Source: Chloroflexota bacterium (GTDB lineage: Bacteria; Chloroflexota; Dehalococcoidia; UBA2979). From it: DNA of 64,000 nucleotides. Positions 8,620 to 64,000 of the stretch are shown piece after piece. Below the pieces are notes generated by a model that ran no database searches, was not told the DNA's origin, and saw only the letters and a list, made by a program, of their open reading frames with translations. The position numbers and the translations under genes are program-made. The stretch covers positions 191,660-255,659 of the forward strand of contig JAQCIU010000001.1 in assembly GCA_027593235.1 (NCBI GenBank). The letters run 5' to 3'. How positions within the stretch are numbered: the first letter of the stretch is position 1; each line of letters opens with the position of its first letter.

Positions 8620-9486
8620 GTGGAAGTCCGTCGCTTCGACGACATCGACGCGTTCGCCGCGCGCGCCGTGCCGCACCTCGCGGCGCACGAGGCCGAGAGC
8701 AACCTCGAGCTCGGCATCATCGCCGCGATCCAGGCGGGCCGCTTCGCCGACGCTGCCCCGCTGCTCCTGTCCGTGGAAGCCGCTGGCGAGGTGCTCGGCG
8801 TGGCGATGCGTACGCCGCCCTTCGGGCTGCTGCTGTCCTCGCTGTTGCCGCCTGCCGCTGTGGCAGCGGTCGCCACCTGGCTGCGCGCATCCGACGACCC
8901 CGCTGCCGCGATCCCCGGAGTGCAGGGCGAGGTCTCGGTCGCGGCCGCATTCGTCGAGGCCTGGCATCGGATCGCGGGCCCTCGAATGGCGGTTCACCGC
9001 GAGGAGCGGATCTACCGCCTGACGGCGGTGCGCCCCCCGACACCGCTTCCCGCGGGCACCCTCCGCGAGGTGCGGGCAGACGACCTCGCGCTTATCGTCG
9101 ACTGGTTCGCGGCGTTCGCCGTCGACACCAACGACCCCGATCCGATCGATCCGGCGGTCGCCGCCGGCCGCGTCATCAGCGCTGGCTCTCCGGACTTCGG
9201 CCTCGCGATCTGGGACGTCGACGACACACCTCGATCGATGGCCGGCTACGGCGGTCCGACGGCCCACGGGATCCGCGTCGGTCCCGTCTACACGCCGCCG
9301 GAGCAACGCCGTCGCGGCTACGCCGGCGCGCTGGTCGCGGCGCTGAGCCAGCACCTCCTCGATGGCGGCCGGCAGTTCTGCTTCCTCTTCACCGACCTGT
9401 CGAACCCGACCTCGAACCACGTCTACCAGCAGCTCGGCTACGAGCCGGTCAGCGACGTCACCCAGTGGCGGCTCATCGAGGGCTGA
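8620..9486 (+). CDS. GNAT family N-acetyltransferase
   Basis: RVGPVYTPPEQRRRGYA and LFTDLSNPTSNHVYQQLGY. Confidence 0.9.
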   Translation: MEVRRFDDIDAFAARAVPHLAAHEAESNLELGIIAAIQAGRFADAAPLLLSVEAAGEVLGVAMRTPPFGLLLSSLLPPAAVAAVATWLRASDDPAAAIPGVQGEVSVAAAFVEAWHRIAGPRMAVHREERIYRLTAVRPPTPLPAGTLREVRADDLALIVDWFAAFAVDTNDPDPIDPAVAAGRVISAGSPDFGLAIWDVDDTPRSMAGYGGPTAHGIRVGPVYTPPEQRRRGYAGALVAALSQHLLDGGRQFCFLFTDLSNPTSNHVYQQLGYEPVSDVTQWRLIEG

Positions 9487-9510
9487 CCGCGCGTCCCCGA
9501 CGGCCGCCGC

Positions 9511-10266
9511 CTATCGCATCAGCCAGCGCAGCGAGTCGGCGAAGATCGCGCCGCCATGGCGGCGGCTGTGCCCGCCCTCCCCGAAGACGAAGCGGTAGTC
9601 GTACCCGGCGTACTCGAGGGCCGCGACCAGCTGCTTGTTGGCGAGCGGCCAGTTGCCGACGGGATGATCGAGGTCGTTCGTGCCGCTGGTGAGGAAGAGC
9701 CGGAGCGGCTTCGGCTCGGTGGTGCGGACGAGGTAGGGGTAGTTGTGGCCACCTCGGATGTTGGCGAAGGAGCCGCAGTGGCTGAGCACACGGCCGAAGG
9801 CGTCCGGGCGATGCCAGGCGGCGGTGAACGCGGCGATGCCGCCGCTGGAGATGCCACCGATCAGGCGCTGTGCCGGGTCGGTCGAGAGCGGGCGACCGAT
9901 CCGCTCCTCGACGAACGGGAGCAGGTCATCGAGGAGGAACGTGACGTACGCATCGGTCAGCGTGTCGTACTCGATGCTGCGCTGGTCGCCGAGCGTTGCG
10001 TCGATCGTGGGGTTGGGTGGGTTGCGGACGCCGGGGTCGACGAACACCGCGACCGTGGGCGGCAACTCCCCGGCGTGGACCAGCGTGTCGAGGACGGCGG
10101 GGACGCGGACGGCGCCTCCGTTGTCGACATAACCATTGCCGTCCTGGAACACCATCAGCGCAGGCGGCTCCGCCGAGCCTGCGAGTTGAGCTGAACGGTA
10201 GATCCAGACGTTGCGGGTAGTACCGGCGAAGACGTCGGTGTCGGTCCATGCCTCCGCCGATCGCAA
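9511..10266 (-). CDS. Enterochelin-esterase-like alpha/beta hydrolase (possibly N-truncated)
   Basis: LMVFQDG, RSIEYD, GGISSGG nucleophile and GEGGHS; weak TTG start immediately after the hup terminator. Confidence 0.75.
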   Translation of the reverse strand: MRSAEAWTDTDVFAGTTRNVWIYRSAQLAGSAEPPALMVFQDGNGYVDNGGAVRVPAVLDTLVHAGELPPTVAVFVDPGVRNPPNPTIDATLGDQRSIEYDTLTDAYVTFLLDDLLPFVEERIGRPLSTDPAQRLIGGISSGGIAAFTAAWHRPDAFGRVLSHCGSFANIRGGHNYPYLVRTTEPKPLRLFLTSGTNDLDHPVGNWPLANKQLVAALEYAGYDYRFVFGEGGHSRRHGGAIFADSLRWLMR

Positions 10267-10294
10267 CCGCCGTGCCGATCAATCGACGCGAGGC

Positions 10295-10330
10295 ATAAAG
10301 AAAGGCGGCCCGCTGGATGCGAGCCGCCTT
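10295..10330 (-). terminator. Rho-independent terminator of hup
   Basis: Minus strand GGCGGCTCGC-ATCCA-GCGGGCCGCC followed by TTTCTTTAT. Confidence 0.8.
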
Positions 10331-10356
10331 CCTGGCGATCAGCGGGTTGGGGAGGG

Positions 10357-10650
10357 CTAGACGGCGACCCGGTCGCGCAGGCCCTTGGCGGCCTTGAACG
10401 CGGCAACCTTCTTCGCCGCAATCTGGATCGTCGCACCGGTCGCCGGGTTGCGACCTTCGCGTGCACCACGGCTTCGCGTCTCGAACTTCCCGAAGCCCGC
10501 GATCGTCACGTCGCGTCCCGCGTCCAGTTCAATCGCGATGATGCCCTTACCGTCTTCCACGCTGAACAGCGTGTCGACGATTTCCATTGCCTTCGCTCGC
10601 GTCAGGTCAGTCTTCCCTGCGAGCTTCTCGGCCAGTTCCGTCTTGTTCAT
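10357..10650 (-). CDS. hup: DNA-binding protein HU
   Basis: MNKTEL...GFGKFE..R.AREGRNPATGATIQI...FKAAKGLRD; AGGAGG RBS. Confidence 0.97.
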   Translation of the reverse strand: MNKTELAEKLAGKTDLTRAKAMEIVDTLFSVEDGKGIIAIELDAGRDVTIAGFGKFETRSRGAREGRNPATGATIQIAAKKVAAFKAAKGLRDRVAV

Positions 10651-57388: not shown

Positions 57389-57516
57389 TCAGAGGCGGCA
57401 CGCCTCGGCGCCACGCGCGCCCTCGGTCATCGGCGCGCCGTGTGGCAAGTGACGTCGTAGAGGTAGATCCCCTCCACGGTTGCGCCGCTGAAGTTCGCAC
57501 CGGTGAGGTCGACCGC
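57389..57516 (-). pseudogene. 3' remnant of a pentapeptide-repeat gene cut by the element at 57517
   Basis: Reads AVDLTGANFSGATVEGIYLYDVTC, then with a one-base shift (P)HGAPMTEGARGAEACRL*. Confidence 0.6.
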
Positions 57517-58347
57517 TGTGGGGCGCCAAAACCTCATCCGCTATTCTTCGGGCCATTGATCAGTGAGCTGATTGGCACGGAACCGCATGAAGAGCCTGCG
57601 TGCCCGTCTCGCATCGCGACTCGACCTCGTGCTCCAGAACGTCGCTCTGCACCATCAGCTGATGGTCCTCGAACGCAGCAACCGGAGGTTGCGTGCTCGG
57701 ACGTTCGACGGCTCTGACCGCTGGTTGTGGGTCCTCCTCTCCCGGTGGTGGCCTCGCTGGCGCGAGGCCCTGACGATCATTCAGCCGCAAACGGTTGTGC
57801 GCTGGCGGCGCACTCCCTGGTGGCGGCACGCATTCCAAAGACGAACGCGCCGCGGCGGCCGTCCGCGCATCTCAGCGGAACTCCAGGCCCTGATCCCAAG
57901 GATGCAGGCGGAGAACCCGCGCTGGGGAAGCATGCGCATCCTCGGGGAGCTGAAGAAGCTCGGTTTCGAGGTGAGCAACTCAAGCGTGAGGCGCTACCGG
58001 GGCAGGGCTCACCAACGCCCTTGGGGCCAGAGTTGGCGGACGTTCTTCTACAACCACGCGCCCTACGCGCAGGAAGCACTCCAGGAGGCGATCGACGAGC
58101 GCACGCGACGCGCGTTGGAGACGTTGCTGAGTCGGTTCGGCCTATGGCGCCGCGCTCGACGACGGTCGCTGCCGACCGGTGAACCGGTGCTGATTCGGGA
58201 ACTCCCGCTCAAGCCGACCGCTGTCACAGGCGTCAGCCGGCAACGGTCGTCCGAAGCGGGTACCTCGAACTCCCAGCAGTCGCGTGCCAGCCCCGATGGT
58301 GGCTCGCGGGCCGCGTAGTGCTGAAGATGAGGTTTTGGCGCCCCACA
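57517..58347 (+). mobile_element. Non-autonomous IS481-like element, copy 1 (831 bp)
   Basis: Perfect 22-bp TIRs TGTGGGGCGCCAAAACCTCATC (57517-57538 and 58326-58347); transposase N-terminal ORF. Confidence 0.85.
57587..58318 (+). CDS. Transposase N-terminal/HTH half with no DDE (rve) domain
   Basis: NVALHHQL..DR..W..LSRWW..IIQPQTVVRW..GRP..M.AENPRWG..RILGELKKLG..SWRTFFYNH; no catalytic core follows. Confidence 0.8.
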   Translation: MKSLRARLASRLDLVLQNVALHHQLMVLERSNRRLRARTFDGSDRWLWVLLSRWWPRWREALTIIQPQTVVRWRRTPWWRHAFQRRTRRGGRPRISAELQALIPRMQAENPRWGSMRILGELKKLGFEVSNSSVRRYRGRAHQRPWGQSWRTFFYNHAPYAQEALQEAIDERTRRALETLLSRFGLWRRARRRSLPTGEPVLIRELPLKPTAVTGVSRQRSSEAGTSNSQQSRASPDGGSRAA

Positions 58348-58424
58348 GGTTGAGCTTTAGTGCGCGACGCATCCTCGACCCGCTCGGTGCCGCCGACGAT
58401 CGCCCGCTGCCGCTCCGAACCGTC

Positions 58425-61400
58425 TCAGGACTTGGGAACCTCAAGAAGCTCGGCCAGCTGATCCGAGAGCGGGTTCTGAAGCCTCCAGCGGACCGTGATC
58501 GGCTTCTGGCCTTCCCACCCTACGAAGTGGACGTCACCACAGAAGATGAAGGGCGCGGCTTGCCCACCCAGCTTTCCCGTCTTGCGAATCAGCAGGTGCA
58601 CCGGGATATTGCGTTCGGCGTGCTGGCTGATTGCTTGGCCCGCTCCGCTCTCCTGCGTATGCCGGTTCTGACTCCTCCACTCGAACAGATCGCGGCTCAA
58701 AAACCGATCAGCGTATCGGTGCTCTTGCGGCATTCCACTCTTGTCGAGCGTAACCAACAAGAAGAGGTGACCGCCCTCCGAGATATATCCCTGCTGCCAG
58801 AGCGCGCTTCTGAATTCAAGCCCAAACGCTGGGGGGATGTCGGCTCGCATGTAGCTTCGGCCCACCTCCAAGCCCTCCTCGACTGCCGTGCGTTGCATCG
58901 GCTCAAGGGCCCAGATATCGTCCCGCCGGACGAACCGGACTTGGTAGCCCGTGCCCGGCAGGCCGGCGTCTTCTCCGAACCAGCTGCGTAGCAGCTCCGG
59001 AAGTACGTTCTCGCGACTGCCAGGGCGACGCATGATGTTGACCGCTACCTTGGCGAAGTTGGCCTCGTATTCCTTGTCGGCGATTACAACCTGCGTCCAG
59101 TCGGAGGGGATCGCCGGGCGAGTCTCGCGCGGAGGCAAGAAGAGCAGAGGGCGCCCGCCCGCATGGCTCACCCGGCACACGAACGATCCGGTGTCCTCGT
59201 CCGATGATCCATCGCCGGTCCGCAGTCGGTCGATGTATTCGGCAAGCCGCCACTCGGCGATCTCCTGCACTAGGTCACCCAGCGCCTCACGGTCATCGTC
59301 TCCGACTTTGAGGGTCGTGCGGAAGATCCCTTCCTCGTACTCGAAGAATGAAGCTGCCCCGGTTCCCTTGCCCTCGATCCACGCAGCGATGGGCTGCGTG
59401 ACGAGCGTTCTCTCGAGCGCCTGGTCGTCGTCGAGTGGGATCGAAAAGTCGCGCTGAAGGATCGCGGATCGTCGCGCCAGGCGACGGATACCATCACGGA
59501 GGATGTCGATTCGAATCTCGCCCGGGAAACAGTTCGCCTGCAGCATCGCCTCCAACACGAGGAACTTGTAACTGCGCGTCATCGGAGTGGTCTCGAGAAC
59601 CTTCAGAAAGCTGGCGCTCGGCTCGTCGCGGACCAGCCGCTTCGAACGCTCATTCAGGTCTCCCATCGCGTCGACGAAGCGGAGCCACGAGCCGTAACCC
59701 TGGCGCACCGACCTTGGGCGGTAGCCCTCGTGGTGCATCTCAGACGCTGTGGGCCGAGCGCCGTACCGCTCGCGGAAGTCCTCGTAGAAGAAACGAATCG
59801 CGGCGTCGCCTGACCCCAGGCGAAGGAGTGATTGCAGAATGTCAATTGCCTCGAGGTCGTATGTGACTTCACAGCCCGGAGGAAGATCGGCTTCTCCCCG
59901 CTGCAACCGCTCGAGTTGGCGGGCAATCTCTGCATCCCCGCCGGACAGATCGAACAGCGTCTGTGGCTTGAGCAAGAATGTTCGATGGTTGCCGATGTAA
60001 TCGACGACCGTGAGCCGTTGCTTGCCCACCGCCTTGCGAAGTCCGCGGCCAAATTGCTGCAGCCAGAGGATCCTCGATTCGGTTGGCCGGAGCATCATCA
60101 CGGTGTCGACGTTGGGGAGGTCCACGCCCTCGTTGAACATGTCTACCGCGAATACGACATCGAGTTCGCCGCCGGCCAGCTGCTCGAGGGATCCAACTCG
60201 AGGATCGCTGGTCGTGTCCGAGTGCACGGCTGCCGCCCGCACGCCCGCGCTCAAGAAGAACTCTCGCATGAAGTCCGCGTGACGCGTCGAGCAGCAAAAA
60301 GCCAGCGTCTGCTTTCCGCCACGCAGACGGTACTGTTCCAGAACGTTCTCCGCGCGTGCTCTTGTGGCGACTGCTTCGGTGAGCGCTGTCTCATCGAACC
60401 GGCTGCTGCGCCAGGGAATGTTGGCGTAGTCGACCTCATCGGGAACACCAAAGTAATGGAACGGGGAGAGCAATTCCTCGCGGATGCCCTCAGCCAGATC
60501 GCAGCGAAAGACCATGTTCTCCTGACACAGCGTGAGGAGGTCTCCACCATCCGTTCGCTCGGGAGTGGCCGTCAGGCCGAGCAGGAACTTCGGCTCGAAG
60601 TAGTTAATGAGTCGCCGATAGGTCCGGGCAGAAGCGTGATGGAACTCGTCCACCACGATGTAGTCGAAGTCTTCCCGTGCGAAGCGACCCAGGTGCGCCT
60701 CTCGTCCAATCGTCTGGATCGAAGCAAAGACGACTTCCGCATCCGGAGTCTTCTCTTGTCCCGTGTAGAGGCCTAGATGTGCGGTGGGACGGATCCGTCG
60801 GTAGGTCGCCATCGCCTGACGGAGGATCTCATCGCGGTGCGCGACGAAGAGGACGCGACGGTATTCGGGTCGCGTACTGTCGAAGGCTGAGAGCCACGTC
60901 TTGCCGAGTCCGGTGGCCAACACCACAAGACCTGCGGAGTTGCCAGCCTCCCGGGTGGCTTCGAGGGCGGCAAGGGCCTGCCGCTGGATCGAGTGGGGTT
61001 CCGGAGGCGGAGGAGCGGGTTCGGGTACGACTTCCGCGGGTGCGGCTCGAGGAACCCGTGTCGCGCGGTACTCGTCGACCCACGCCGCGTCGATCACGCG
61101 AACCTTTGGGTGGTTGAGCAGGTCCTCGAACGCGACCCGTACGTCCGCGAACCTCGTCTCATCTCGGGAAGGAATGATCCGGTAATTCCACTCGAGTCCC
61201 GTGGTCAACGCGGGGCGGGTGAGGTTCGAGCTTCCGACGAGCGCGACGCCCGGTCCTTCTCGATCCGCCTGGTCGTAGAAGAGGTAGGCCTTGGGATGAA
61301 AGCTCTGCTCGTCCGCCTCGAAAGCGCGCAAATCCAATCGGTCGGGCCACCGTTCCTTGAGATCTAGGAGTTGAAGGAGCGCTGTGGGATCGGTGACACC

Positions 61401-62051
61401 GAGGTACGTCCCGGTCACGATCCGCAGGTGACCGCCGCGCTCGATGAGGTCCTGCAGATGCGCTCCGAGCAACTGCACCCCGCTCTCGAGCAGGAACGCG
61501 ACCGCGAAATCCGCCGCGTTCGCGAGATCGAGGTAGGCACGGACATGTGGCAGGAGCGGATCGTCTCCTCCCGTGATGAGTGCAGGCCGATGCGGGAGAT
61601 GTCGCGCTAACGCAGATTCCCCCTCGACACCCCCGAGGTGCCCAGCTTCACCTTGGGGCCGTGACACCGCTGCGAGGTAGTCTGCCTTGTCCGGCAGCAC
61701 GGATCGGACGCCGCCGCGCGGATTCGCGATATCGCCCGCGAACCGTGGAATCACATGCAGGTGGAGGTGCTCGACAGTTTGTCCCGCAGCCTCACCAATG
61801 TTGACGCCGATGTTGAAGCCGTCAGGACGCCGCACCTTTTCGATCTCTTGCTTCGCGAGGTTGATGCCGGCGAGCAACTCCGCTTGTTCGTCAGAGGTAG
61901 CGTCGAACCACGACACGACGTGGCGCTTCGGAATCAGAAGCGCATGCCCTGGACTCACGGGAAATGCGTCCCACAGACCAAGCGTGAGCGAACCAGCTTG
62001 GAAGATGCGCTCCGCTGCGGGCGCACAGAACGGGCACAGCGCTTCGCTCAT
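58425..62051 (-). CDS. HIT-PLD nuclease-SF2 helicase-DUF3427 protein (SauUSI-like type IV restriction enzyme with HIT fusion), 1208 aa
   Basis: CPFC..SPGH..HLHLHVIPR; FHPKAY..GSSNLT; LATGLGKT, DEFHH, GLTATP, QQFGRGLR; MTRSYK; LLVTLDK..Y.DRF...FEWRSQN. Confidence 0.9.
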   Translation of the reverse strand: MSEALCPFCAPAAERIFQAGSLTLGLWDAFPVSPGHALLIPKRHVVSWFDATSDEQAELLAGINLAKQEIEKVRRPDGFNIGVNIGEAAGQTVEHLHLHVIPRFAGDIANPRGGVRSVLPDKADYLAAVSRPQGEAGHLGGVEGESALARHLPHRPALITGGDDPLLPHVRAYLDLANAADFAVAFLLESGVQLLGAHLQDLIERGGHLRIVTGTYLGVTDPTALLQLLDLKERWPDRLDLRAFEADEQSFHPKAYLFYDQADREGPGVALVGSSNLTRPALTTGLEWNYRIIPSRDETRFADVRVAFEDLLNHPKVRVIDAAWVDEYRATRVPRAAPAEVVPEPAPPPPEPHSIQRQALAALEATREAGNSAGLVVLATGLGKTWLSAFDSTRPEYRRVLFVAHRDEILRQAMATYRRIRPTAHLGLYTGQEKTPDAEVVFASIQTIGREAHLGRFAREDFDYIVVDEFHHASARTYRRLINYFEPKFLLGLTATPERTDGGDLLTLCQENMVFRCDLAEGIREELLSPFHYFGVPDEVDYANIPWRSSRFDETALTEAVATRARAENVLEQYRLRGGKQTLAFCCSTRHADFMREFFLSAGVRAAAVHSDTTSDPRVGSLEQLAGGELDVVFAVDMFNEGVDLPNVDTVMMLRPTESRILWLQQFGRGLRKAVGKQRLTVVDYIGNHRTFLLKPQTLFDLSGGDAEIARQLERLQRGEADLPPGCEVTYDLEAIDILQSLLRLGSGDAAIRFFYEDFRERYGARPTASEMHHEGYRPRSVRQGYGSWLRFVDAMGDLNERSKRLVRDEPSASFLKVLETTPMTRSYKFLVLEAMLQANCFPGEIRIDILRDGIRRLARRSAILQRDFSIPLDDDQALERTLVTQPIAAWIEGKGTGAASFFEYEEGIFRTTLKVGDDDREALGDLVQEIAEWRLAEYIDRLRTGDGSSDEDTGSFVCRVSHAGGRPLLFLPPRETRPAIPSDWTQVVIADKEYEANFAKVAVNIMRRPGSRENVLPELLRSWFGEDAGLPGTGYQVRFVRRDDIWALEPMQRTAVEEGLEVGRSYMRADIPPAFGLEFRSALWQQGYISEGGHLFLLVTLDKSGMPQEHRYADRFLSRDLFEWRSQNRHTQESGAGQAISQHAERNIPVHLLIRKTGKLGGQAAPFIFCGDVHFVGWEGQKPITVRWRLQNPLSDQLAELLEVPKS

Positions 62052-62581
62052 GTTCCTGCGCCATCCCGCAGCGGCAGTCGTGTTATGACCAGTTGTCCTT
62101 CGAGCCCGTCGCTGCGGCACGCCGCGCAGCGCCAACGGCGAACTACTCTCCGCGCAACGCGCGATGCGTGGCAAACAGGGCAGCGATGTGCCCAGACCGG
62201 CCGAGATCGCCTGCGCGAGGGAGCGAGTCCTTCTAGAAGCTCAGCGGGCACCCGTGTGCGCGGCTCGAAGCCGGCTGCTTGGACTAGTTCTCGCCACTCG
62301 GGTCCGTGTGGCCTCGGCCCGAGCCCGTGCAGCTCGTGGATCGCCGCGTGAGCGGCCTCGTGACAGAGCGCCTCGTGAAGGAGCACCAACGGCCCATCGA
62401 GTAGAAACGCCGCCAGTCGGATCTCACCCGAAGCAGGTGCGCATCGACCCAGAGACGTCTGGAATCGCCGGCTGAACGACAGGGAGAGACGGTCATGGAG
62501 GCCAGGGAGCCCCCACAGCCCGCCGTAGCGCGCGATGATGGTGCGTAACTCCTCAGCTTGTGGATCGGGCCGATCCCTCAT
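62048..62581 (-). CDS. SprT-like zinc metalloprotease
   Basis: FSRRFQTSLGRC..IRL, LCHEAAH (HExxH), HGPEWR and C-terminal CPVC..CAAC; ATGA overlap with the downstream gene. Confidence 0.85.
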   Translation of the reverse strand: MRDRPDPQAEELRTIIARYGGLWGLPGLHDRLSLSFSRRFQTSLGRCAPASGEIRLAAFLLDGPLVLLHEALCHEAAHAAIHELHGLGPRPHGPEWRELVQAAGFEPRTRVPAELLEGLAPSRRRSRPVWAHRCPVCHASRVARRVVRRWRCAACRSDGLEGQLVITRLPLRDGAGT

Positions 62582-62588
62582 GTGGGCC

Positions 62589-62597
62589 ACGCTACCA
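62589..62597 (-). promoter_or_regulatory. Extended -10 (TGgTAGCGT) 7 nt upstream of the SprT ATG: leaderless promoter
   Basis: Same geometry as other -10/start pairs in this window; no SD. Confidence 0.45.
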
Positions 62598-63138
62598 TGC
62601 GTCGGCCAGCGGGCGCGTTGCCAGTCAGCGGCAGCCCGTCCGTTCCTCTCCGTCCCTACGCATCAGTCTGATCGAGATTCCGGAGATCGGCGATGATGCC
62701 GACGAGTCCGTCGATTACAGCCTCCGGGTTGTCGCTGACCTGGGCAGGCGTCATTCGCCGGGCAGAAACTCCTTCGCTTGACGTATCGGCGCCCGGACCG
62801 CCGCGGAAAGTTCCGGGCCGCTCGCAACCACGTTCATGTCAGATCAGCTGGCGCTCTGCCCGGAGACCGAGAAACGCCGTCACTGCTGGACGGATGCAGT
62901 TTTGCCGCCCTATACGGGCGAGATCGACTGGCGGGACAGAGCATCGACTAGCGGATCGCCCAGACCCTGCGCCTCGCGCCTTCCCGGTGAGGCTCAAGGA
63001 GCGGGTACTCGGCACGCGGCTCCATCAGCCTTGCCCAGTAAAGCTCCGGAAGGTCGATGATCGCGTCTTCGTCGAACTGCCTGCTTCTGTTGACTCAGCA
63101 TCGCCGCGTGGACCAGCCACCCGGCTTTCTGGCCATCC

Positions 63139-63952
63139 TGTGGGGCGCCCCGCATCTGCAGTGTCACGCGGCCCGCGCGCCACGGTCTGGGCTGGCACGG
63201 GACGGATGAGAGTTCGAGACAGCTGCCCTGCGGAAACGTTGACGGACACCTGTGACGGCGGTCGGCCTAAGCGGGAATCCCCGACGTAGCAGCGGGCCAC
63301 CAGCAGGCGGCGGCCGTCGTCGAGCGCGGTGCCGACTCAGCAATGTCTCCAACGCGCGCCGCGTGCGCACGTCGACCGCCCCTTGCAGCGCCTCCCGGAC
63401 GTAGGGAGCGTGGTTGTAGAAAAACGTCCGCCAACTCTGGCCACGAGAGTGGCGGCGCGTGGTGCGCCGGTAGCGCCGCACGCTTGAGTTGCTTACCTCG
63501 AAACCGAGCTTCTTCAGCTCCCCGAGGATGCGCATGCTTCCCCAGCGCGGATTCTCCGCCTGCATCCGCGGAATCAGGGCCTGGAGTTCAGCTGAGATGC
63601 GCGGACGGCCGCCGCGACACCTTCGTCTGTGGAGTAGGTGTCGCCACCAGGGAATGCGCCGCCAGCGCACGACCCTCTGCGGCTGGACGATCGCTAGCTG
63701 TACTGACGCCAGCGAGGCCACCACCGGGAGAGAAGGATCCACAGTGAGCGGTCCGAGCCGTTGAACGTCCGAGCGCGCGACCTGCGGTCGCGGCGCTCGA
63801 GCACCGTCAGCTGATGATGCAGAGCCATGTTCTCGAGCACGAGGTCGAGCCGTGACACGAGGCGGGCACGCAAGCTCTTCATCCTGTTCCGTGCCGATCA
63901 GCTCATTGATCATTGGCCCGAAGAATAGCGGATGAGGTTTTGGCGCCCCACA
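63139..63952 (-). mobile_element. Non-autonomous IS481-like element, copy 2 (814 bp), inverted
   Basis: Intact TIR at 63931-63952; degenerate TIR at 63139 (AAAA deleted); colinear with copy 1. Confidence 0.85.
63164..63882 (-). pseudogene. Frameshifted copy of the DDE-less transposase ORF
   Basis: ORF-track pieces 63694-63882 and 63164-63913 join at a frameshift near 63700; ends ..RAA* like copy 1. Confidence 0.8.
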
Positions 63953-64000
63953 GCCCCGCGTTCCTTCGGATGATTCGTGCAGCGAAAGAGGGGCAGTTCG

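What the first reader, a model, noticed from the sequence alone, without database searches (positions are those of the whole stretch)
58425..62581. Candidate new defence system: SprT-like protease coupled to a HIT-PLD-helicase-DUF3427 nuclease
Seen: a two-gene operon with ATGA overlap at 62048-62051, intact catalytic motifs (HEAAH; HLHLH; HPK..GSSN; GKT/DEFH), no methyltransferase, inside a mobile island. Established: PLD + SF2 + DUF3427 is the SauUSI type IV (modification-dependent) restriction architecture; SprT/Spartan proteases are DNA-activated and remove DNA-bound proteins. I know of no described system pairing them. Inference A: the protease strips or degrades phage DNA-protecting or anti-restriction proteins, or activates the nuclease by cleavage. 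Inference B: SprT + HIT + PLD parallel eukaryotic SPRTN, aprataxin and TDP1, suggesting a module for protein-linked or adenylated DNA ends.
Basis: partly seen in the sequence, partly recalled or inferred. Interest (0 to 1): 0.85.

Follow-up and report, generated by a model that had tools for sequence, protein, structure and literature searches.

The report
Restriction enzyme with a protease partner
A horizontally acquired two-gene unit couples a Spartan-like DNA protease to a SauUSI-type restriction enzyme carrying an extra nucleotide-hydrolase (HIT) domain; the pairing recurs across many bacterial phyla and I found no published description of it.

Summary
A 177-aa SprT-like gene (62048-62581, minus strand) overlaps by ATGA a 1208-aa gene (58425-62051) that encodes HIT + PLD + SF2 helicase + DUF3427.

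- **Core enzyme:** it is collinear with the solved type IV restriction enzyme SauUSI (7clg, E 1.3e-92). PADLOC calls it mREase_IV.
- **What is unusual:** the N-terminal HIT fusion and the SprT partner.
- **The pairing is not chance:**
  - SprT lies directly upstream in 44 of 72 informative homologous loci from many phyla.
  - 33 of those 44 share the 4-nt start/stop overlap.
  - In a 401-genome Acidobacteriota sample, 9 of 9 HIT-bearing genes have SprT, against 0 of 11 HIT-less SauUSI-like genes.
- **SprT is dispensable:** whole clades lack it yet keep an intact HIT motif.
- **Optional third gene:** a MutT-like NUDIX gene sits in 13 of 80 loci, all 13 with SprT. SprT-NUDIX fusion proteins also exist.
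- **Recent acquisition:** the module has lower GC, is bounded by two inverted IS-like repeats, and is absent from 60 relatives.
- **Prior description:** SprT matched no PADLOC model, and my paper searches found no named system that pairs these genes.
- **Mechanism:** what SprT, HIT and NUDIX do remains inference.

Verdict: a new variant of a known kind.

The parts
62048..62581 (-). SprT/Spartan-like zinc metalloprotease gene (177 aa): protease subdomain plus C-terminal 4-Cys zinc ribbon
   Evidence: Pfam SprT-like 6.1e-13. H74, E75, H78, H92 and C134, C137, C152, C155 are invariant in 42 of 42 aligned homologues. The profile matches human Spartan 6mdx at E 2.5e-6. The AF2 model has pLDDT 92.3, and its top Foldseek hits are 6mdx and 6mdw.
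62048..62051 (-). ATGA start/stop overlap (translational coupling of SprT to the nuclease gene)
   Evidence: Read directly. The same 4-nt overlap occurs in 33 of 44 homologous adjacent pairs.
58425..62051 (-). HIT-PLD-SF2 helicase-coupler-DUF3427 protein (1208 aa), a SauUSI-family type IV restriction enzyme with an N-terminal HIT fusion
   Evidence: PADLOC mREase_IV 3.5e-113; 7clg_A E 1.3e-92; catalytic residues invariant in 35 sequences.
61677..62051 (-). HIT domain (residues 1-125): CPFC motif and HLHLH histidine triad
   Evidence: Pfam HIT 4.3e-20. The nearest solved structures are 6af2, the Ap4A phosphorylases 3wo5 and 3ano, Fhit and Hint. HxHxH is intact in 65 of 66 HIT-bearing homologues.
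61047..61574 (-). PLD-family nuclease domain (about residues 160-335), with a single HxK motif (H252, K254) and GSSN
   Evidence: H252, K254 and G273-N276 are invariant.
59952..61001 (-). SF2 helicase-like ATPase (about residues 351-700): Walker A GLGKT, DEFH, motif VI
   Evidence: ResIII 2.9e-36 and Helicase_C 2.3e-14. Motif residues are invariant.
58884..59951 (-). Region between the ATPase and DUF3427 (about residues 701-1056), presumed coupler; no confident family match
   Evidence: Only a weak HNH_repeat hit at 0.0023. Its position corresponds to the SauUSI coupler domain as described in PMC7913695 section 24. That correspondence is inference.
58446..58883 (-). DUF3427 C-terminal domain (residues 1057-1202), presumed reader of modified DNA
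   Evidence: Pfam DUF3427 5.4e-21. It aligns to the SauUSI recognition-domain region 801-903 at E 7e-5.
62582..63133 (.). 552-nt region upstream of SprT, inside the IS-bounded segment; the promoter is presumably here
   Evidence: The sigma-70 scan found no promoter-like site. ORF 62693-63289(+) has no family match.
57516..58348 (+). Left IS-like repeat (833 nt) with perfect 23-nt terminal inverted repeats; encodes a 248-aa HTH-only protein
   Evidence: I5; HTH_32 only; weak match to the IS481/IS3 N-terminal region, far below cut-off.
63134..63953 (-). Right IS-like repeat, inverted relative to the left copy and 82-88% identical; lies about 50 nt from the contig end
   Evidence: I1-I4; the window end is the contig end.

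Best explanation
This is a mobile two-gene anti-foreign-DNA module. Its core is a SauUSI-type, modification-dependent (type IV) restriction enzyme.

**Core enzyme (by homology with SauUSI).** The C-terminal DUF3427 domain recognises modified DNA. Recognition switches on the SF2 ATPase, which translocates along the DNA. A PLD nuclease, presumably dimeric, then cuts. Two accessories have been added.

**Accessory 1: a catalytically intact HIT domain.** It is fused to the N-terminus and defines this clade.

**Accessory 2: a translationally coupled upstream Spartan-like protease.** It is a zinc protease with a zinc ribbon. It occurs only with HIT-bearing enzymes, in about two thirds of them. Sometimes a MutT-like NUDIX hydrolase joins it.

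**Most likely role of SprT (inference).** It is a DNA-activated protease that acts on protein sitting on the same DNA as the translocating nuclease. There are two options.
- It degrades stalled or covalently trapped copies of the nuclease itself. This would limit self-damage, much as I recall ClpXP-dependent restriction alleviation doing for type I enzymes. I put this at about 0.3.
- It strips DNA-bound proteins of the invader that block translocation or cleavage. I put this at about 0.25.

**Likely role of HIT and NUDIX (inference).** They most likely hydrolyse a nucleotide-linked species: a dinucleoside polyphosphate, a modified dNTP or a phosphoramidate adduct. The substrate is unknown.

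**Shown versus inferred.** Shown: the domain content, the conserved catalytic residues, the conserved gene pairing and coupling, the HGT context and the similarity to SauUSI and Spartan. Inferred: the defence role, the substrate, every step that involves SprT, HIT or NUDIX, and any physical contact between the proteins.
For: **Core enzyme**
- PADLOC mREase_IV 3.5e-113.
- SauUSI 7clg E 1.3e-92 over residues 158-706. The C-terminal domain matches 7clg 801-903 at E 7e-5.
- H252/K254/GSSN, Walker A, DEFH and motif VI are invariant in 35 sequences.
- The SauUSI mechanism comes from the abstract and section 24 of PMC7913695.

**Pairing**
- SprT lies directly upstream on the same strand in 44 of 80 loci, which is 44 of 72 with enough upstream DNA.
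- 33 of 44 junctions have a 4-nt overlap, and 40 of 44 overlap by 1-11 nt.
- Pairwise identities of SprT and the nuclease correlate: Mantel r 0.68, with 0 of 2000 permutations as high, over 33 pairs.
- In the 401-genome Acidobacteriota sample, 9 of 9 HIT-bearing genes have SprT next to them. None of 11 fetched HIT-less SauUSI-like loci has it at E<=1.
- Seen from the SprT side, 9 of 17 SprT matches in that sample abut the full gene, and a tenth is cut by a contig end.

**SprT is a live Spartan-like protease**
- HExxH...H and the four Cys are invariant in 42 of 42 sequences.
- Spartan 6mdx is the best match by sequence profile and by fold.

**Defence and HGT context**
- 0 of 60 relatives carry the gene.
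- The region has low GC and IS-like flanks.
- The family is patchy: 9 of 401 Acidobacteriota genomes.
- Flanking ORFs hit defence models: mREase_IV 6, PbeA 8, DpdF 5 and GajB 3 of 125.
- Neighbours include SLFN-g3 helicases, and SIR2 and relaxase genes on plasmids.
- The own genome, 89.7% complete, has no C5-cytosine methyltransferase match.

**NUDIX link**
- NUDIX is present in 13 of 80 loci, all 13 SprT-positive.
- SprT-NUDIX fusion proteins exist: P0123, P0124 and P0204.
Against: - No experiment and no expression data support any of this.
- SprT is absent from 28 of 72 informative loci. That includes a 7-row alphaproteobacterial clade and a 6-row Pirellula clade.
- The two whole genomes checked from those clades have no SprT of this subfamily anywhere, yet HIT, PLD and ATPase motifs stay intact. 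SprT is therefore not needed for the core activity.
- The closest relative of the window protein (L033, 67% identity) has no adjacent SprT. Its genome keeps a 59%-identical SprT at an unrelated locus.
- Four intact orphan SprT genes occur in the Acidobacteriota sample, so SprT may also work alone.
- No SprT fusion to the nuclease was found, though that search is weak.
- Neighbour hits to defence models have no baseline for comparison. Many are generic helicase cross-hits.
- Counts across related genomes are not independent.
- The recognised modification is unknown. DUF3427 matched only the second half of the Pfam model (positions 123-278 of 280).
Confidence: 0.6

Rival explanations
1. DNA repair module rather than defence. 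SprT proteolyses DNA-protein crosslinks, the PLD domain removes the peptide-DNA remnant as TDP1 does, HIT cleans adenylated or nucleotide-capped ends as aprataxin does, and the helicase and DUF3427 find the lesion.
For: - SprT is Spartan-like by sequence and by fold.
- PLD nucleases work through a covalent histidine-phosphate intermediate. This is stated for BfiI in PMC7913695 section 24.
- HIT and NUDIX are nucleotide-adduct hydrolase families.
- All catalytic motifs are conserved.
Against: - The distribution is patchy and HGT-driven, unlike a housekeeping repair pathway: 0 of 60 relatives, 9 of 401 Acidobacteriota genomes, and IS-like flanks.
- The PLD-to-DUF3427 body is collinear with a proven restriction enzyme, SauUSI.
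- There is one HxK motif per chain, as in SauUSI and BfiI. I recall that TDP1 has two.
- The nearest HIT structures are Ap4A phosphorylase, Fhit and Hint. No aprataxin appears among the 60 listed.
- Neighbours include other restriction and defence genes.
Confidence: 0.1
2. SprT activates or regulates the nuclease by cleavage. For example, it could cut the variable linker between HIT and PLD (about residues 126-160) once DNA is bound. That would release an autoinhibitory HIT domain.
For: - SprT occurs only with HIT-bearing enzymes: 9 of 9 against 0 of 11, plus 0 of 3 plasmid genes with a decayed HIT.
- The HIT-PLD linker is the least conserved stretch of the N-terminal third in the 35-sequence consensus.
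- The SauUSI authors discuss a possible regulatory role for the nuclease-ATPase linker (PMC7913695 section 24).
Against: - 24 of 66 HIT-bearing enzymes in the tree lack SprT yet keep HIT and all other motifs. HIT therefore cannot be an inhibitor that strictly needs SprT for release.
- No cleavage site or contact has been shown.
Confidence: 0.12
3. SprT is a DNA-damage-sensing regulatory protease of the IrrE/ImmA/CapP type. It cleaves a repressor to switch on the module.
For: Foldseek lists IrrE/PprI at ranks 5-6 (E about 8e-3) and CapP at rank 46, E 1.0.
Against: - No conserved HTH repressor gene accompanies the pair. The only recurrent third gene among 80 loci is NUDIX.
- Spartan is clearly the better match, at E 1.5e-4 over 182 columns and E 2.5e-6 by profile.
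- The zinc ribbon is a SprT/Spartan feature.
Confidence: 0.06
4. The adjacency has no functional meaning. SprT is a passenger that merely travels with this mobile gene.
For: - SprT is dispensable in many lineages.
- Intact orphan SprT genes exist.
Against: - The 4-nt coupling overlap is conserved in 33 of 44 pairs across phyla.
- The two proteins have diverged in step.
- The association is specific: 9 of 9 against 0 of 11.
- The protease catalytic residues are invariant.
Confidence: 0.07

Closest known systems
[quoted passage not shown]
   Same: It has the same order of PLD nuclease, SF2 helicase-like ATPase, coupler and C-terminal DUF3427-type recognition domain in one chain. The match is E 1.3e-92 over residues 158-706, and E 7e-5 for the C-terminal domain. 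There is no cognate methyltransferase. PADLOC files both under mREase_IV.
   Different: The window protein has an extra N-terminal HIT domain of about 125 aa with an intact histidine triad. It also has a translationally coupled upstream SprT-like protease, and a NUDIX gene in some relatives. Neither accessory occurs in the 11 HIT-less SauUSI-like loci examined. Identity to the HIT-less SauUSI-like genes found is only about 29-41%. The substrate modification is unknown.
Spartan/SPRTN and Wss1 (eukaryotic DNA-dependent DNA-protein-crosslink proteases; PDB 6mdx)
   Same: It shares the HExxH plus a downstream His within an HGPE motif, followed by a zinc-binding subdomain. Spartan is the best sequence-profile match and the best fold match.
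   Different: The window protein is only 177 aa and has none of the eukaryotic regulatory tails. It is encoded in an operon with a restriction enzyme on a mobile segment. DNA-dependence and substrates are untested. Identity to 6mdx is 19%.
ArdC (plasmid anti-restriction protein with a Spartan/Wss1-like metalloprotease domain; PDB 6sna, 6i89)
   Same: It is another case of a SprT-type protease in the restriction/anti-restriction arena.
   Different: ArdC acts for the invader and carries an ssDNA-binding N-terminal domain. It is only a weak fold match here, at ranks 30 and 50 with E 0.5-1.2.
Ap4A phosphorylase / Fhit / Hint branch of the HIT superfamily (PDB 3wo5, 3ano, 6af2, 1fhi)
   Same: These are the best solved matches of residues 17-108, at E 7e-19 to 2.5e-11. 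They share the HxHxH motif and the N-terminal CxxC motif.
   Different: Here the domain is fused to a nuclease-helicase. It scores far below the NCBIfam equivalog cut-offs (71.8 against 290 bits for ATP adenylyltransferase). Its substrate cannot be inferred.
sprT-endA neighbourhood of Enterobacteria
   Same: It is a SprT-family gene next to a nuclease gene. PMC5714182 section 22 notes sprT-like genes beside His-Me finger (Endonuclease_1) genes (passage read).
   Different: The nuclease family is different (periplasmic Endonuclease I). The locus is chromosomal and conserved, and has no helicase, HIT or DUF3427.

Membership tests
SauUSI-family type IV restriction enzyme | PLD-family nuclease domain with an HxK motif, N-terminal to the ATPase | tested here: met
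   FHPK (H252, K254) and GSSN are invariant in 35 sequences. The region aligns to 7clg residues 32-575. Pfam PLDc_2 alone is just under its cut-off, at 24.8 against 27 bits.
SauUSI-family type IV restriction enzyme | SF2 helicase-like ATPase with Walker A, DExH and motif VI | tested here: met
   ResIII 2.9e-36 and Helicase_C 2.3e-14. GLGKT, DEFH and QxxGRxxR are invariant.
SauUSI-family type IV restriction enzyme | C-terminal DUF3427-type target recognition domain after a coupler | tested here: met
   DUF3427 scores 5.4e-21 but covers only model positions 123-278 of 280. The domain aligns to 7clg 801-903 at E 7e-5.
SauUSI-family type IV restriction enzyme | No cognate methyltransferase | tested here: met
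   No methyltransferase domain was found in the ORFs scanned in the IS-bounded segment. The own genome, 89.7% complete, has no PF00145 match. Only the C5 family was searched.
SauUSI-family type IV restriction enzyme | ATP-dependent cleavage of DNA carrying 5mC/5hmC; dimer through the PLD domains | not testable with these tools
   This needs biochemistry. The properties are those reported for SauUSI in the abstract and section 24 of PMC7913695.
SprT/Spartan/Wss1 metalloprotease family | HExxH plus a third zinc-ligand His downstream | tested here: met
   H74, E75, H78 and H92 are invariant in 42 of 42 sequences. They align with the HEMIH...HGPEF of Spartan 6mdx.
SprT/Spartan/Wss1 metalloprotease family | Zinc-binding subdomain or zinc ribbon after the protease core | tested here: met
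   C134, C137, C152 and C155 are invariant. Zn_ribbon_SprT scores 3.7e-4, below its cut-off. The full-length model aligns to 6mdx over 182 columns with TM 0.48.
SprT/Spartan/Wss1 metalloprotease family | Protease activity switched on by DNA | not testable with these tools
   This property is known for SPRTN (abstracts of PMC7826251 and PMC7534798, seen in the listing). It is untested for this protein.
HIT superfamily | Histidine triad H-x-H-x-H-x-x | tested here: met
   The window protein reads HLHLHVI. The motif is intact in 65 of 66 HIT-bearing homologues. The exception is L037.
   No aprataxin appears among the 60 listed PDB matches. The best matches are 6af2, Ap4A phosphorylase, Fhit and Hint. 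The HIT domain is followed by a variable linker and then the PLD domain.
   There is one PLDc_2 stretch and one HxK motif per chain. The best solved relative is the single-motif dimeric nuclease domain of SauUSI (PMC7913695 section 24).
Any named multi-gene defence system in PADLOC-DB v2.0.0 | Both proteins match models of one system | tested here: not met
   SprT matches 0 families at E<=0.01. The large protein matches the single-gene mREase_IV. DefenseFinder and REBASE were not available.
Composite transposon | Two copies of one IS, each with terminal inverted repeats and a transposase, bracketing the cargo; target-site duplication at the outer ends | tested here: inconclusive
   Two inverted copies with 23-nt terminal repeats bracket the module. 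Each encodes only an HTH protein with no recognisable catalytic domain. The copies are only 82-88% identical. Target-site duplication was not examined, because the right copy lies at the contig end.

The most novel reading that the evidence does not exclude
The module is a defence machine in which three activities that eukaryotes use to clear DNA adducts work together on invader or self DNA. They are a Spartan-like protease, a PLD phosphodiesterase/nuclease and a HIT (plus NUDIX) nucleotide-adduct hydrolase. For example, SprT could digest proteins covalently or tightly bound to DNA, including the PLD enzyme's own phosphohistidine-linked intermediate or phage terminal or protective proteins. 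HIT would then hydrolyse the remaining phosphoramidate- or nucleotide-linked stub. That would make proteolysis of DNA-bound protein a new step in restriction, and a prokaryotic counterpart of SPRTN-coupled adduct processing.
Probability: 0.12. Interest if true: 0.85.

Novelty: new variant of a known kind. Interest (0 to 1): 0.58.

Why it matters
Type IV restriction enzymes are usually treated as single-protein systems. This work points to a large branch of the SauUSI family with added parts.

- **Size and spread:** the best 120 of 6845 database homologues all carry HIT and DUF3427. Members come from many phyla.
- **Added parts:** the branch has acquired a nucleotide-hydrolase domain. In about two thirds of cases it also has a dedicated Spartan-like protease, and sometimes a NUDIX hydrolase.

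If the protease acts on DNA-bound protein, there are two possible pay-offs:

- It could be a built-in way to limit self-damage by a translocating nuclease.
- It could be a way to defeat DNA-protecting proteins of phages.

Either result would be a new principle for restriction systems. It would also give bacterial SprT proteins, whose function is poorly understood, a testable role. In practice, annotation pipelines now label the pair only as 'DUF3427 domain-containing protein' and 'SprT family metalloprotease'.

Tried and rejected
- **Complex prediction:** SprT with residues 1-345 (HIT+PLD) of the large protein, both as alignments, gave no verdict (score 0.00, controls not run). It says nothing either way about binding.
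- **RNA evidence:** no RNA holder was listed for the 4.2-kb stretch.
- **SprT alignment as a locus query:** The single SprT protein then gave only 8 loci. Those were SprT beside HIT remnants or with unrelated genes downstream, plus one locus (L085) beside the large gene.
- **Stand-alone SprT-HIT units:** I considered them and rejected them.
  - L110 is the full gene split by a ~1.85-kb insert that encodes a reverse transcriptase.
  - L082 keeps only residues 1-52.
  - L081 (NUDIX-SprT-HIT, 210 aa) abuts a convergent gene and looks truncated.
- **Alternative conserved partner in SprT-less loci:** all-against-all clustering of ORFs of at least 100 aa found none. Apart from overlapping-frame artefacts, only SprT (45 loci) and NUDIX recur.
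- **Viral contigs:** no relative was found. The search is pattern-based.
- **Plasmids:** 46 records match, but none covers at least 80% of the query.
- **Promoter and terminator scan:** 0 promoter-like sites. Terminator-like sites were no more frequent than in shuffles.
- **SprT fused to the nuclease:** not found in the 'longer' search, which is weak evidence.
- **Paper searches that found nothing naming the pair:**
  - 'SprT' + 'DUF3427' gave 1 unrelated paper.
  - 'SprT-like' + 'SauUSI' gave 0.
  - 'SprT', 'anti-phage', 'HIT domain' and 'type IV restriction' gave 1 unrelated paper.
  - 'SprT-like', 'defense system', 'phage' and 'helicase' gave 2 unrelated papers.
  - 'SauUSI', 'DUF3427' and 'HIT' matched 16 papers, 13 of them listed; none pairs them by the listing and the passages read.
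- **Not searched:** A description there cannot be excluded.

Full report

Yes. On the minus strand a 177-aa ORF runs from the ATG at 62581 to the stop at 62048-62050. A 1208-aa ORF starts at the ATG at 62051 and ends with the stop at 58425. The two overlap as ATGA at 62048-62051.

Pfam finds SprT-like (6.1e-13) and a sub-threshold SprT zinc ribbon in the small protein. In the large protein it finds:
- HIT, residues 20-104
- PLDc_2, residues 196-292, just under its cut-off
- ResIII, residues 351-499
- Helicase_C, residues 574-672
- DUF3427, residues 1057-1202

No methyltransferase lies in the segment.

**2. What is the large protein?**

PADLOC's best model is mREase_IV, the type IV methyl-directed restriction enzyme, at 3.5e-113 over residues 168-736.

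The best solved relative is SauUSI (7clg_A), at E 1.3e-92 with residues 158-706 aligned to 32-575. The C-terminal domain aligns to SauUSI residues 801-903 at E 7e-5.

SauUSI is a dimeric PLD nuclease with an SF2 ATPase, a coupler and a recognition domain. Target recognition switches on ATP-driven translocation, and the DNA is shredded (PMC7913695, abstract and section 24).

In an alignment of 35 homologues these residues are invariant: the HxK and GSSN of the PLD site, Walker A, DEFH, motif VI, and two of the three HIT histidines. The middle HIT histidine is conserved in at least 90%.

From the PLD domain onward the protein meets every sequence-level feature of the SauUSI family. The N-terminal HIT domain is extra. 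Its nearest solved relatives are 6af2, the Ap4A phosphorylases 3wo5 and 3ano, Fhit and Hint. No aprataxin appears in the list.

**3. What is the small protein?**

In an alignment of 42 homologues, H74, E75, H78, H92 and four cysteines are invariant. The profile's best PDB match is the human Spartan protease domain (6mdx, E 2.5e-6). The alignment places HEAAH on Spartan's HEMIH and HGPEW on its HGPEF.

An AlphaFold2 model (pLDDT 92.3) has 6mdx and 6mdw as its top Foldseek matches over the whole length. Minigluzincins follow, then IrrE/PprI more weakly.

It is therefore a compact Spartan-like protease with a zinc-binding subdomain, and it is under purifying selection.

**4. Is the pairing more than chance?**

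*Locus survey.* A scan of one genome per species found 318 relatives. The best 80 were kept. They are 48-68% identical, all begin with the HIT domain, and they come from many phyla.

An HMM of the SprT subfamily finds the gene directly upstream on the same strand in 44 of the 80 loci. Eight of the other 36 have under 450 nt of upstream DNA. That leaves 44 of 72 informative loci with SprT. One further locus, L047, has SprT 1.7 kb upstream.

*Junctions.* Of the 44 junctions, 33 have the same 4-nt start/stop overlap. Seven more overlap by 1-11 nt, three have gaps of 15-17 nt, and one could not be placed. The start codon was chosen as the nearest one to the aligned N-terminus, which slightly favours overlaps.

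*Co-divergence.* Pairwise identities of SprT and of the large protein correlate. Mantel r is 0.68, with 0 of 2000 permutations as high, over 33 pairs. This fits joint inheritance and transfer.

*An independent sample.* In 401 Acidobacteriota genomes:
- The SprT profile (E<=1e-20) hit 17 places in 15 genomes.
  - Nine abut the full large gene. One of these genes is split by a reverse-transcriptase-encoding insert.
  - One shows the HIT start at a contig end.
  - One is uninformative.
  - Two are SprT fragments.
  - Four are intact orphans beside unrelated genes.
- The large protein (E<=1e-40) hit nine HIT-bearing genes, all nine with SprT.
- It also hit 13 HIT-less SauUSI-like genes at 36-41% identity. 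None of the 11 fetched has SprT, even at E<=1.
- Nine stand-alone HIT-like matches at 53-61% identity lie in genomes that have no SprT of this subfamily.

A raw Fisher test of 42 of 66 against 0 of 14 gives p = 6e-6. The rows are related, so this number overstates the evidence.

**5. SprT is an accessory, not a requirement.**

A tree of 66 near-full-length proteins has 42 rows with SprT and 24 without. It needs at least 7-9 gains or losses.

SprT-less clades include 7 alphaproteobacterial rows and 6 Pirellula rows. The Rhizobium and Pirellula genomes checked have no SprT of this subfamily anywhere.

The closest relative of the window protein (L033, 67% identity) lacks an adjacent SprT. Its genome holds a 59%-identical SprT beside a sulfotransferase gene instead.

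The HIT triad is intact in 24 of 24 SprT-less rows and in 41 of 42 SprT-positive rows.

Three Paracoccaceae plasmid genes are 53-58% identical over the core. They have only a decayed HIT remnant and no SprT. They nest inside the SprT-less alphaproteobacterial clade with local support of 97 and 99.

**6. A third, optional partner.**

A MutT-like NUDIX gene lies beside the module in 13 of 80 loci. All 13 are SprT-positive, and the NUDIX gene is usually immediately upstream of SprT.

Pfam confirmed the NUDIX domain in the six that I scanned and in L081. SprT-NUDIX fusion proteins exist: P0123 and P0124 and P0204.

**7. Context.**

The two genes sit between inverted copies of an ~820-833-nt element with 23-nt terminal inverted repeats. 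Each copy encodes only an HTH protein. The copies are 82-88% identical, and only fragments occur elsewhere in the genome.

GC falls to 0.61-0.65. The window ends at the contig end.

None of 60 relatives has the gene. A 96%-identical large protein and a 92%-identical SprT both have an 8490-nt longest contig on record, so they probably lie on the same contig.

Among 125 ORFs flanking homologues, PADLOC models hit several. The counts are mREase_IV 6, PbeA 8, DpdF 5, REase_I 5 and GajB 3. There is no baseline for these counts, and many are helicase cross-hits.

Other neighbours are SLFN-g3 helicases, and a SIR2 protein and relaxases on plasmids. The own genome, 89.7% complete, has no C5-methyltransferase match.

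**8. Mechanism.**

*What rests on homology.* The body of the enzyme should work like SauUSI.

*What is inference.* SprT is a Spartan-like protease that is co-translated with a DNA-translocating nuclease. The simplest reading is that it acts on protein bound to the same DNA.

I favour two versions:
- It destroys stalled or trapped nuclease molecules to limit self-damage. The PLD chemistry goes through a covalent histidine-phosphate intermediate in BfiI, as stated in PMC7913695 section 24. From memory, ClpXP-dependent restriction alleviation of type I enzymes is a precedent.
- It removes invader proteins that block the enzyme.

Placing the protease gene first, with coupling, would suit a protective role on arrival in a new host.

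HIT and NUDIX probably hydrolyse a nucleotide-linked compound. Nothing here identifies which.

*Rivals.* These are a true DNA-repair module, activation by cleavage of the variable HIT-PLD linker, an IrrE/CapP-type regulatory protease, and mere hitch-hiking. Each is weighed in its own section of this report.

**9. Novelty.**

The core enzyme is a known kind. I did not find the HIT fusion with a dedicated Spartan-like protease, and the optional NUDIX, described anywhere:
- SprT has no PADLOC-DB v2 model match.
- Five paper searches found nothing that pairs them. I read passages from three of the returned papers.

Sources label the proteins only generically. Supplements, subscription journals, DefenseFinder and REBASE were not available, so prior mention elsewhere is possible.

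I rate this a new variant of a known kind, of moderate to good interest.

Noticed in passing
window 57516-58348 and 63134-63953: Two inverted copies of an ~820-833-nt IS-like element bracket the module. They have perfect 23-nt terminal inverted repeats and an ORF with only an HTH (weak IS481/IS3 N-terminal similarity, no catalytic domain). Elsewhere in the genome there are only fragments: 69 nt on C21 and 112 nt on C50.
   Followed up: partly
L001 3141-3752, L016 3919-4470, L036 4075-4476, L002 8470-9057, L024 6113-6625 and 8 other loci; proteins P0123, P0124, P0204: A MutT-like NUDIX gene accompanies the module in 13 of 80 loci, always with SprT and usually just upstream of it. Three database proteins are SprT-NUDIX fusions.
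   Followed up: partly
L119 (G418:C5), about 8719-10572: The large gene is interrupted after about residue 105 by a ~1.85-kb insert that encodes an RVT_1 reverse transcriptase. It looks like a group II intron. The rest of the gene resumes downstream.
   Followed up: partly
L150, L151, L152 (Paracoccaceae plasmids): These relatives are 53-58% identical in the core and keep only a decayed HIT remnant: CPIC and RHV remain, but the triad is lost. They have no SprT and lie beside relaxase/MobC, SIR2 or Fic genes.
   Followed up: yes
L008 11462-13575: A second SprT copy lies 3 kb downstream of the module. It is followed by an ORF with an N-terminal NUDIX domain and about 320 further residues that match no family.
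   Followed up: partly
L034, L065, L062 and others (flanks of homologous loci): Six of 125 flanking ORFs are themselves mREase_IV-type genes, so two SauUSI-like enzymes lie in tandem in some genomes.
   Followed up: no
L032 2911-4926, L056 2-1540: In two SprT-less loci, a Schlafen group 3 (DUF2075-type) helicase gene lies directly upstream of the large gene.
   Followed up: no
L146, L147, L149 and six further places: Nine Acidobacteriota genomes have short matches (residues 4-138) that are 53-61% identical to the HIT domain alone. This is as close as full-length orthologues are, and none of these genomes has a SprT of this subfamily. It is not known whether they are remnants or stand-alone HIT proteins.
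   Followed up: no
L037 (HIT motif region): One SprT-positive homologue has the middle histidine of the triad replaced (H-F-R-I-H).
   Followed up: no
window 62693-63289 (+): A 198-aa ORF in the region upstream of SprT overlaps the inner end of the right IS-like copy. It has no Pfam or NCBIfam match and may not be a gene.
   Followed up: partly
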